4,241 nt of DNA, taken from the sequence record FJ539132.1, one strand, 5' to 3'. The DNA comes from Qubevirus faecium. Positions within the stretch are counted from its first letter, which is position 1. Every line of letters starts with the position of its first letter. Shown here one piece after another: positions 1,395 through 2,422 of this stretch. A model generated the notes under the pieces. The model saw only the letters and a program-made list of their open reading frames with translations, was not told where the DNA came from and made no database searches. The translations under genes were made by a program, and so were the position numbers.

Positions 1395-1793
1395 ATGGCA
1401 AAATTAAATCAGGTAACACTTACCAAATTAGGTAAGGCGGGCGATCAGACTTTAACTCTTACTCCACGTGGGGTAAATCCCACTAACGGAGTGGCGTCGC
1501 TGTCCGAAGCTGGTGCTGTACCGGCTCTCGAGAAGCGAGTAACTGTGTCAGTTGCTCAGCCATCCCGTAACCGTAAGAACTATAAAGTTCAGATTAAGCT
1601 CCAAAACCCGACTGCATGCACGAAGGACGCATGTGACCCATCTGTGACGCGTTCCGCGTTCGCGGACCTAACGCTTTCGTTCACGTCGTATTCTACTGAC
1701 GCTGAACGTGCGCTGATTCGCACTGAATTGGCGGCTCTGTTGCAAGATCCTCTGATTGTCGATGCAATCGATAATCTGAACCCTGCATACTGA
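1395..1793 (+). CDS. Major coat (capsid) protein, 132 aa, terminated by a leaky UGA
   Basis: Seen: ATG at 1395 (the track's 1389 start is an upstream in-frame TTG giving MIM...; ATG 1395 gives MAKLNQ...), TGA at 1791-1793, two cysteines in ACTKDACD. Recalled: near-identity to Qbeta coat across PRGVNPTNGVASLS, PALEKRVTVSV, QPSRNRKNYKVQ, CDPSVTR, and C-terminal DAID.LNPAY. Confidence 0.95.
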   Translation: MAKLNQVTLTKLGKAGDQTLTLTPRGVNPTNGVASLSEAGAVPALEKRVTVSVAQPSRNRKNYKVQIKLQNPTACTKDACDPSVTRSAFADLTLSFTSYSTDAERALIRTELAALLQDPLIVDAIDNLNPAY

Positions 1794-2387
1794 GCGGCGT
1801 TATTGGCAGCCTCGTCTAGCGGTGGGGATAACCCAAAGCCAGACGTTCCGGATCGTCCAGACGTCAAACCGCCAGGCGGAACGGGCAGCTATCGCTGTCC
1901 GTTTACCTGTTACCGCCTCGGTAATATCATCGAGGTAGGGCAAAACGGTTCTCCTGACATCTATGCCAGGGGAGACGAGGTCCAGGTTATGTTCGATTAT
2001 GCTCTCGAGGATTTCCTTGGGAACACCAATTGGCGTAACTGGGATCAGCGACTATCAAATTATGATATAGCTAATCGTCGTCGTTGCCGAGGCAATGGTT
2101 ACGTTGACCTGGACGCAACTGCGATGCAGACCGACAGCTTTGTGCTATCCGGTAAGTATCCAGTGCGGAAGGTCAAGTTTCCAGGTGCCTTTGGCGCCCT
2201 CAAGTATCTCCTTAACATAAAGGATGATGCCTGGGTGGACTTGTCCGAGGTAACGGCCTACCGTTCCTATGGAATGGTCATCGGTTTCTGGACGGACTCT
2301 AAGAGCCCGCAGCTGCCGAGTGACTTCACCCAATTTGACAGTACGAATTGTCCTGTTCAGACGGTGATCGTCATACCCTCACTTTAA
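1395..2387 (+). CDS. A1: Read-through minor capsid protein A1 (coat plus C-terminal extension, about 330 aa with UGA decoded as Trp)
   Basis: Seen: the coat frame and the 1803-2387 ORF are the same reading frame (1395 and 1803 are both 0 mod 3); the track's M at 1803 is a TTG inside the extension, not an independent start. Recalled: extension blocks match the Qbeta A1 read-through domain (KPD.P..PD..PPGGTG.Y.CPF, LGNT.WR.WD.RLS, CRGNGY.DLDAT, PGAFG, VIGFW.D, FDFT.FD.T.CP.Q.VIV.P). Confidence 0.85.
1791..1793 (+). promoter_or_regulatory. Leaky UGA stop codon: programmed translational read-through site between coat and the A1 extension
   Basis: Seen: TGA at 1791-1793 is followed by an in-frame open frame of 197 sense codons up to TAA 2385-2387. 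Established: Qbeta coat UGA is occasionally read as Trp to make A1. Confidence 0.85.
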
Positions 2388-2395
2388 GCAACTTA

Positions 2396-2401
2396 AAGGA
2401 G
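2396..2401 (+). promoter_or_regulatory. Shine-Dalgarno sequence (AAGGAG) for the replicase gene
   Basis: Seen: AAGGAG at 2396-2401, 5 nt upstream of ATG 2407. Confidence 0.75.
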
Positions 2402-2402
2402 A

Positions 2403-2422
2403 TAGCATGTCTAAGACAGCTA
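2403..2422 (+). promoter_or_regulatory. Coat-protein translational operator hairpin covering the replicase start codon (8-bp stem, bulged A2407, 3-nt loop UAA 2412-2414)
   Basis: Seen: UAGC-A-UGUC (2403-2411) pairs with GACAGCUA (2415-2422); the unpaired bulge A is the A of the AUG at 2407-2409. Recalled: the Qbeta operator has the same 8-bp stem, bulged A and 3-nt loop, and coat dimers bind it to repress replicase translation. Confidence 0.75.

What the first reader, a model, noticed from the sequence alone, without database searches (positions are those of the whole stretch)
1785..2387. Programmed UGA read-through from coat into a 197-codon extension (A1), with the stop followed by G
The coat stop TGA (1791-1793) is followed in the same frame by 197 sense codons before the first in-frame stop (TAA 2385-2387). 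This is the Qbeta A1 arrangement, where a few percent of ribosomes insert Trp at UGA and the product is needed for infectious virions. The nucleotide after the stop here is G (UGA-G). My recollection is that Qbeta has UGA-A, and that the 3' neighbour affects UGA leakiness in E. coli, so the read-through frequency may differ from Qbeta.
Basis: partly seen in the sequence, partly recalled or inferred. Interest (0 to 1): 0.6.

Follow-up and report, generated by a model that had tools for sequence, protein, structure and literature searches.

The report
Known leaky-stop coat extension (A1)
This is the ordinary, already catalogued "read-through" coat-protein extension (A1) of a Qbeta-like RNA phage of E. 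coli, and the G after its leaky UGA stop is the normal state for this whole phage species, not a quirk of this genome.

Summary
TGA sits at 1791-1793, followed by 197 in-frame sense codons and TAA at 2385-2387, with G at +4. The window is a complete 4241-nt Qubevirus faecium (group IV allolevivirus) genome. Its maturation, coat and replicase proteins are exact matches to GenBank ACT66749, ACT66750 and ACT66752. The extension is a true Qbeta A1 read-through domain: Pfam PF16814 at 1e-48, PDB 3RLC/3RLK at 1e-48, and dN/dS of 0.12-0.22 against relatives. UGA-G is not peculiar to this genome. Every Q. faecium sequence examined (SP, FI, NL95, HB-P24, BR1, BR8 and 21 assembled contigs) has UAC-UGA-GCR-GCG-UUA. 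Every Q. durum sequence (Qbeta, MX1, M11 and others) has UGA-ACN. I found no conserved RNA element close to the 3' side of the stop. The most likely mechanism is simple competition between Trp-tRNA and RF2 at UGA. Whether UGA-G lowers the read-through rate relative to Qbeta is plausible from the literature but unmeasured. Verdict: already known, low interest. One side observation: the read-through module groups with SP-type phages while the replicase groups with NL95-type phages, which may reflect old recombination.

The parts
1395..1793 (+). Major coat protein cistron (132 aa plus UGA)
   Evidence: ORF list. Pfam Levi_coat at 3.5e-56. Exact match to GenBank ACT66750.1, capsid protein of Qubevirus faecium.
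1791..1793 (+). Leaky UGA stop of the coat cistron, the read-through site
   Evidence: Sequence. UGA occupies the homologous position in all 39 allolevivirus sequences examined.
1794..1806 (+). Immediate 3' context GCG GCG UUA UUG G (+4 = G), encoding Ala-Ala-Leu-Leu
   Evidence: GCR GCG UUA YUG G is conserved in every Q. faecium sequence. Q. durum has ACN instead.
1794..2384 (+). Read-through extension, 197 codons
   Evidence: Translation. Pfam PF16814 Read-through at 1.3e-48. PDB 3RLC/3RLK Qbeta A1 at 1.1e-48. dN/dS of 0.12-0.22 against group IV relatives.
1794..1880 (+). Gly/Ser/Pro-rich linker of the extension (residues 1-29: AALLAASSSGGDNPKPDVPDRPDVKPPGG)
   Evidence: Sequence. pLDDT below 50 over residues 1-29 in the model. 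This is the most length-variable part of the alignment.
1881..2384 (+). Globular read-through domain
   Evidence: The model's only significant PDB matches are 3RLK and 3RLC (E 4e-13, TM 0.61-0.67). There are 57 invariant columns across group III and IV.
2385..2405 (+). A1 terminator TAA (2385-2387), with two further in-frame stops (TAA 2394-2396, TAG 2403-2405) overlapping the replicase Shine-Dalgarno AGGAG (2397-2401)
   Evidence: Sequence. TAA GCA ACT TAA is conserved in group IV except FI.
1395..2387 (+). Complete A1 (coat plus Trp plus extension) reading frame; 329-residue mature product, about 36.0 kDa
   Evidence: Homologous CDSs are annotated as read-through/A1 protein in HB-P24, NL95, SP, FI, BR1 and BR8.
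1731..1798 (+). Predicted irregular hairpin. Its basal helix pairs 1731-1737 (GCGGCUC) with 1792-1798 (the GA of UGA plus GCGGC). Its apical stem is 1754-1776.
   Evidence: RNAalifold. The MFE of the region has z = -4.6. The apical stem shows compensatory changes across groups III and IV. The basal helix is invariant in group IV and only 3-4 of 6 pairs form in group III, so it is unproven.

Best explanation
The window is the genome of a group IV allolevivirus (Qubevirus faecium, most likely strain HB-P22). Ribosomes translating the coat cistron usually terminate at UGA 1791-1793 through RF2. In a small fraction of passages, Trp-tRNA(CCA) decodes the UGA as a near-cognate codon. Translation then continues in frame for 197 codons to TAA 2385, giving the roughly 36 kDa minor capsid protein A1: coat, a flexible Gly/Ser/Pro linker, and a globular read-through domain. 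A few copies are incorporated into the capsid in place of coat subunits, and they are needed for infectivity. What is shown here: the anatomy, the homology, the purifying selection and the fixed context. What is inferred from Qbeta and E. coli work: Trp insertion, the few-percent rate, virion incorporation and essentiality. No dedicated RNA stimulator seems to be required. The signal is the weak stop UGA plus its immediate neighbours (UAC before it, GCR GCG after it). The +4 G is the species-wide state in Q. faecium. It probably gives read-through of the same order as Qbeta's UGA-A, perhaps somewhat lower.
For: The geometry is exact. The open frame is improbable by chance, at about 1e-4. The flanking genes are Phage_mat-A, Levi_coat and RNA_replicase_B, and the extension is Pfam Read-through at 1.3e-48. 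The extension matches the Qbeta A1 read-through domain crystal structure at 1.1e-48, and the predicted fold matches only 3RLK/3RLC. The maturation, coat and replicase proteins are exact matches to GenBank ACT66749, ACT66750 and ACT66752 of Qubevirus faecium on a 4241-nt record. The homologous CDS is annotated as read-through/A1 in all relatives, and UniProt P09677 (SP A1) carries W at the stop position. dN/dS is 0.12-0.22 and third-position changes predominate in the coat frame. UGA and an uninterrupted 195-199 codon extension occur in all 39 sequences, including the 91%-identical natural relatives L018 and L019. [quoted passage not shown] A plain UGA reporter gives about 2-4% in K-12 (PMC10570021). 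Reviews give about 5% read-through and Trp insertion for Qbeta A1, and describe A1 as needed for infectious particles (PMC6071253; PMC6526423). There is no strong synonymous-site conservation just 3' of the stop, and the nearest covarying stem starts 19 nt downstream.
Against: Nothing in the sequence argues against it. No protein-level data exist here for this strain, so the rate, the inserted amino acid and the virion content are extrapolated from Qbeta and SP. The literature says A at +4 is the most permissive neighbour for tRNA-Trp at UGA, so the rate with +4 G could be lower than in Qbeta. The exact A1 fusion sequence, with W or X at the stop, was not found in the protein collection. Its prior annotation for this very record is therefore inferred from the accession gap (ACT66751).
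Confidence: 0.95

Rival explanations
1. The extension is expressed as an independent 194-aa protein initiated at TTG 1803, as automatic gene callers annotate it, and not as a coat fusion.
For: The mechanical ORF list gives TTG 1803..2387. Gene calls on the Logan contigs L018, L019 and L030 list separate 183-194 aa 'Read-through' products.
Against: The upstream sequence CUGCAUACUGAGCGGCGUUA has no Shine-Dalgarno beyond a bare GAG. The three codons between UGA and TTG (Ala-Ala-Leu) are conserved as amino acids, with only synonymous changes. Frame continuity with coat is kept in all 39 sequences. The start-like codon differs between lineages, and callers pick different starts that give 183, 194 or 195 aa. 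Known A1 proteins are coat fusions (UniProt P09677; reviews).
Confidence: 0.02
2. Read-through at this UGA-G is boosted or tuned by a group IV-specific element. Candidates are the UAC P-site codon, the conserved GCR GCG, and the predicted helix pairing 1731-1737 with 1792-1798. Such an element would compensate for a +4 base less permissive than Qbeta's A.
For: UAC UGA GCR GCG UUA is invariant in every Q. faecium sequence, while the flanking synonymous sites vary. A 6-bp helix that includes the GA of the stop and bases +4, +5, +7 and +8 is predicted in all group IV genomes but is incomplete in group III. The literature ranks +4 A as most permissive for tRNA-Trp.
Against: The helix shows no covariation, because all its pairs are invariant. 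Its 5' strand lies 54-60 nt upstream, so the helix must be melted when the stop is in the A site. Synonymous-site conservation just after the stop is only mild, at obs/exp 0.74-0.82. GCR GCG is also explained by conservation of Ala-Ala. A plain UGA already gives 2-4% read-through in K-12.
Confidence: 0.15
3. The open frame after the stop is a chance or decaying ORF, or UGA is recoded by another route (selenocysteine insertion or frameshifting).
For: None beyond the bare existence of UGA.
Against: P is about 1e-4 for chance openness. There is strong purifying selection. Homology to a solved functional domain is clear. No Rfam family, SECIS elements included, matches anywhere in the window at E<=1. 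The extension is in the same frame as coat, so no frameshift is needed.
Confidence: 0.01

Closest known systems
A1 / read-through protein of group IV alloleviviruses (Qubevirus faecium: SP X07489, FI EF068134, NL95 AF059243, HB-P24 FJ539133, BR1 and BR8)
   Same: It shares the same genome map. It has the same coat C-terminus ...NPAY, the same UAC UGA GCR GCG UUA context, and a 197-199 codon extension ending TAA just before the replicase start. The extension is 68-84% identical in amino acids.
   Different: This genome is only 82-84% identical in nucleotides to those in the phage collection. Its read-through domain is SP-like (84% aa), while its replicase and maturation genes are NL95/HB-P24-like. 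These are differences of strain or lineage, not of kind.
Qbeta A1 (Qubevirus durum; PDB 3RLK/3RLC; Weiner & Weber 1971)
   Same: It is the same mechanism class: a leaky UGA at the end of coat, an in-frame extension of about 195 codons and a homologous domain. There are 57 invariant residues across both groups.
   Different: The +4 base is A in Qbeta (UGA ACA) and G here. The -1 codon is UAU in Qbeta and UAC here. The extension is 195 versus 197 codons. Amino-acid identity is 45%. The A1 stop is UAG UAA in Qbeta and UAA here.
Structure-stimulated UGA/UAG read-through of eukaryotic viruses (MuLV pseudoknot; alphavirus and other 3' extended stems, PMC3159437)
   Same: A viral stop codon is read through to make a C-terminally extended protein at low frequency.
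   Different: No ribosome-proximal conserved 3' structure or synonymous-site conservation was found here. The system is bacterial, with RF2 competing against tRNA-Trp.

Membership tests
Allolevivirus (Qubevirus) A1 read-through minor capsid protein | The coat cistron (Levi_coat fold) terminates in UGA | tested here: met
   TGA at 1791-1793 follows a 132-aa Levi_coat protein. The same holds in all relatives.
Allolevivirus (Qubevirus) A1 read-through minor capsid protein | An uninterrupted in-frame extension of about 195-200 codons ending just upstream of the replicase start | tested here: met
   There are 197 codons, TAA at 2385 and the replicase ATG at 2407.
Allolevivirus (Qubevirus) A1 read-through minor capsid protein | The extension is homologous to the Qbeta read-through domain (Pfam PF16814; PDB 3RLK) | tested here: met
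   PF16814 scores 165.6 bits against a cutoff of 27. phmmer against PDB gives 1.1e-48. Foldseek top hits are 3RLK and 3RLC. The model is only moderate, with pLDDT 62.
Allolevivirus (Qubevirus) A1 read-through minor capsid protein | The extension evolves as protein-coding sequence in the coat frame | tested here: met
   dN/dS is 0.12-0.22. Differences at codon positions 1, 2 and 3 are, for example, 27, 16 and 67 against SP.
Allolevivirus (Qubevirus) A1 read-through minor capsid protein | Trp is inserted at UGA in a few percent of translation events | not testable with these tools
   This is known for Qbeta (reviews PMC6071253; PMC6526423). It needs a reporter assay or mass spectrometry for this strain.
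Allolevivirus (Qubevirus) A1 read-through minor capsid protein | The product is incorporated into virions and required for infectivity | not testable with these tools
   This is stated for Qbeta in the reviews. Interchangeability of SP and Qbeta proteins is indicated only by the title of Priano et al. 1995, seen in a reference list.
Species Qubevirus faecium (group IV) | Proteins identical or near-identical to deposited Q. faecium records; the group IV stop context UAC UGA GCR GCG UUA | tested here: met
   There are exact matches to ACT66749.1, ACT66750.1 and ACT66752.1, all labelled Qubevirus faecium. Replicase identity is 90% aa to HB-P24 and NL95 and 58% to Qbeta. The context is shared with all group IV sequences.
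RNA-structure-stimulated stop-codon read-through | A conserved structure starting within about 10 nt 3' of the stop, supported by covariation or synonymous-site conservation | tested here: not met
   The nearest covarying stem (1812-1823 with 1868-1879) begins 19 nt after the stop. The synonymous diversity ratio is 0.74-0.82 just downstream, which is not a marked trough. There is no Rfam hit.

The most novel reading that the evidence does not exclude
The UGA-G context fixed in all Qubevirus faecium may set a read-through rate, and hence an A1 dose per virion, measurably different from Qbeta's UGA-A. Alternatively, it may be compensated by group-specific neighbours: the UAC P-site codon, GCR GCG, or the predicted helix pairing 1731-1737 with 1792-1798. 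Either outcome would make the two sister species a natural experiment on how bacterial +4 context tunes programmed read-through.
Probability: 0.3. Interest if true: 0.3.

Novelty: already known. Interest (0 to 1): 0.12.

Why it matters
It matters little as a discovery. This is the textbook A1 read-through gene in a phage genome that is already in GenBank, and the +4 G is the known sequence state of all group IV alloleviviruses. The residual value is a clean, testable comparison. Two sister phage species that infect the same host have each fixed a different base after the same leaky UGA: G in Q. faecium and A in Q. durum. Measuring read-through for both contexts would show how much +4 identity really tunes natural UGA leakiness in E. 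coli, and how much A1 dosage the virion tolerates.

Tried and rejected
Several primary papers are not held in the library: Friedman et al. 2009, Rumnieks & Tars 2011, Poole et al. 1995 and 1998, and Engelberg-Kulka 1981. The +4 hierarchy is therefore cited second-hand from PMC5289835 and PMC10540940. My recollections of A > G > C > U for tRNA-Trp read-through (Kopelowitz 1992) and of the RF2 termination order UGAU > UGAG > UGAA > UGAC (Poole 1995) are unverified memory.

An exact look-up of the A1 fusion (W or X at the stop) and of the 194-aa TTG-started ORF found nothing. Prior annotation of A1 for this very record rests on the accession gap at ACT66751. A scan of IMG/VR with the read-through-domain profile gave only 4 loci: SP, FI and two Qbeta-like contigs. 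The Rfam scan of the whole window gave no hit at E<=1.

I considered a stimulatory 3' structure and rejected it. I also considered independent initiation at TTG 1803 and rejected it. A second 'NPAY-stop' motif hit near the end of the maturation gene in contigs L020-L029 is out of frame and coincidental.

Full report
**Observation.** The window reads ...AAC CCU GCA UAC UGA GCG GCG UUA UUG... with the TGA at 1791-1793 and G at 1794. Translating 1395-2387 gives the coat protein, one stop, then 197 sense codons and TAA at 2385-2387. From base composition, a stop-free run of 197 codons has P of about 1e-4. Only 35 of 200,000 shuffles of the extension stayed open, and the other two forward frames of the same stretch carry 5 and 14 stops. 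With Trp at the stop, the mature fusion is 329 residues and 35,965 Da.

**What the window is.** The four ORFs hit Phage_mat-A, Levi_coat, Read-through (PF16814, 1.3e-48) and RNA_replicase_B. This is the genome map of an allolevivirus. Megablast against the phage collection finds full-length matches at only 82-84% identity: HB-P24, NL95, SP, BR1, BR8 and FI, all Qubevirus faecium. An exact-sequence look-up shows that the maturation, coat and replicase proteins are GenBank ACT66749.1, ACT66750.1 and ACT66752.1, all labelled Qubevirus faecium, on a 4241-nt record. These accessions sit immediately before ACT66753-56 of strain HB-P24, FJ539133. The window is therefore almost certainly the deposited genome of the sister bird isolate HB-P22 from the same study. 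Strain names are listed in PMC6963950. The missing ACT66751 would be its read-through protein. Both points are inferences, because the fusion sequence itself was not found in the protein collection.

**The extension is a real A1 read-through domain.**
- It aligns to the crystal structure of the Qbeta A1 read-through domain (3RLC/3RLK) at 1.1e-48 over residues 13-195.
- A moderate-quality AlphaFold model (pLDDT 62) finds only those two entries in the PDB (E 4e-13, TM 0.61-0.67).
- Across group III and IV phages, 57 columns are invariant.
- Against group IV relatives, the extension shows dN/dS of 0.12-0.22 with third-position changes dominating. It is therefore translated in the coat frame.
- The first 29 residues (AALLAASSSGGDNPKPDVPDRPDVKPPGG) form a low-confidence Gly/Ser/Pro linker, and the rest is globular.
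- The homologous CDS is annotated as read-through/A1 protein in all relatives. UniProt P09677, the A1 protein of SP, carries W at the stop position.

**The stop context.** I extracted the junction from 13 annotated genomes and then from all 39 sequences held, including 21 assembled contigs from public sequencing runs.
- All 32 Q. faecium sequences have UAC UGA GCR GCG UUA YUG G.
- All 7 Q. durum sequences (Qbeta, MX1, M11, FrBurgundy, FrSangria and two IMG/VR contigs) have UGA ACN, mostly preceded by UAU.
It is a fixed difference between the two species, not a peculiarity of this genome.
- Two natural contigs, L018 and L019, are 91% identical to the window genome-wide. They keep the same 197-codon extension and the same context.

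**Is there a stimulatory element?**
- RNAalifold on seven group IV sequences places the stop in the 3' strand of an irregular hairpin, with 1731-1737 pairing with 1792-1798. The region folds better than shuffles, with z = -4.6.
- The apical stem (1754-1776) has compensatory changes across both groups. The basal helix that includes the GA of UGA and bases +4, +5, +7 and +8 is invariant in group IV and only partly formed in group III, so covariation says nothing about it.
- The 5' strand of that helix lies 54-60 nt upstream, so the helix cannot exist while the stop is in the A site.
- The nearest downstream stem with covariation starts 19 nt after the stop.
- A synonymous-site scan over 11 distinct group IV A1 ORFs shows only mild constraint just after the stop (0.74-0.82 of the mean), against real troughs elsewhere in coat (0.34-0.39 at about 1608-1635).
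- Rfam finds nothing.
- I conclude there is no evidence for a ribosome-proximal stimulator.

**Mechanism.** The best-supported model is the classical one. RF2 (with RF3) competes with the EF-Tu:Trp-tRNA complex at UGA, and a minority of ribosomes insert Trp and continue. In E. coli K-12, a plain UGA reporter already gives about 2-4% read-through (PMC10570021). That is the same order as the roughly 5% quoted for Qbeta A1 (PMC6071253). Reviews state that A1 arises by Trp misincorporation at UGA and is needed for infectious particles (PMC6526423; PMC6071253). The literature also says tRNA-Trp reads UGA most readily when A follows it (Engelberg-Kulka 1981 and Kopelowitz 1992, as cited in PMC5289835, and PMC10540940). 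A somewhat lower rate at UGA-G is therefore plausible. My recollection that G ranks second (A > G > C > U) is unverified memory. No measurement for group IV phages was found. What is shown here is the anatomy, the homology, the selection and the fixed context. The rate, the inserted residue, virion incorporation and essentiality are inferred.

**Rivals.**
- Independent initiation at TTG 1803, as automatic gene callers annotate, is unlikely. There is no Shine-Dalgarno. The three codons before the TTG are conserved as amino acids. Different lineages offer different pseudo-starts.
- Chance, decay, selenocysteine insertion and frameshifting are excluded by selection, by homology, by the frame relationship and by the absence of any Rfam family match, SECIS elements included.

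**Side observation.** In 200-nt windows, the genome is closest to HB-P24/NL95 over most of the maturation gene and in several stretches of the replicase gene, for example 0.85-0.90 against 0.68-0.84 at 2359-2758. Across the read-through extension (1762-2358) it is closest to SP/BR1/BR8, at 0.78-0.83 against 0.64-0.74. Neighbour-joining protein trees put the window plus L018 with NL95/HB-P24 for the replicase (bootstrap 0.97). For the read-through domain they put it with the SP group (0.94), with no support (0.00) for the NL95 grouping. The synonymous distance from the window to NL95 rises from 0.43 in the replicase to 0.63 in the extension. This fits an old exchange of the read-through module, with breakpoints near the leaky stop and the A1 stop. 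A long-branch artefact from the fast-evolving NL95/HB-P24 domain is not excluded.

**Verdict.** The feature is already known: a textbook A1 gene in a deposited genome, with a species-typical stop context. Interest is low. The only open point is quantitative, namely how +4 G versus +4 A tunes natural UGA read-through and A1 dosage.

Noticed in passing
window 1762-2400 versus the rest of the genome: Phylogenetic incongruence. The read-through domain groups with the SP/BR1/BR8 lineage (bootstrap 0.94), while the replicase groups with NL95/HB-P24 (0.97). Sliding identity switches near the coat stop and the A1 stop. This may reflect an ancient recombinational exchange of the read-through module, or a long-branch artefact.
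   Followed up: partly
L018 and L019 (Logan SRR24138264 / SRR24138265), whole contigs: Two near-complete assembled genomes are 91% identical in nucleotides to the window across all genes, including the read-through region. They show that this otherwise sparsely sampled Q. faecium lineage turns up independently in other public sequencing runs.
   Followed up: partly
window 1754-1776, with the basal helix 1731-1737 / 1792-1798: The hairpin just upstream of the coat stop has compensatory base changes across groups III and IV. Its predicted 6-bp basal helix includes the GA of the UGA and bases +4, +5, +7 and +8. That helix is complete only in group IV and shows no covariation.
   Followed up: partly
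window ~1608-1635 and ~1671-1689 (inside coat); ~2100-2160 (inside the extension): Synonymous-site diversity among 11 group IV genomes drops to 0.34-0.39 of the mean around 1608-1635 and to about 0.5 around 1671-1689. This suggests overlapping RNA-level constraint. Diversity is about 2-fold elevated around 2100-2160.
   Followed up: no
window 1968-1976: [quoted passage not shown] It is shared with the SP group and L018 but absent from HB-P24, NL95 and FI. A review notes RGD motifs in allolevivirus A1/A2 proteins as proposed attachment motifs.
   Followed up: no
window 2385-2405: The A1 terminator TAA is backed up by two more in-frame stops (TAA 2394, TAG 2403) that interleave with the replicase Shine-Dalgarno AGGAG (2397-2401). 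Group III phages instead use adjacent UAG UAA.
   Followed up: no
window 1812-1823 paired with 1868-1879: A predicted stem in the linker-coding region has compensatory changes among group IV genomes (alignment A1 columns 85:149 and 93:141). It begins 19 nt after the stop, so it is probably a genome-folding element and not a read-through signal.
   Followed up: no
L020-L029, about 425 nt upstream of the coat stop (end of the maturation gene): The sequence AACCCAGCGUAU UAA ACGCUG mimics the Qbeta coat terminus (AACCCAGCGUAU UGA ACACUG) but lies out of frame at the 3' end of the maturation gene in SP-like contigs. I judged it coincidental.
   Followed up: no
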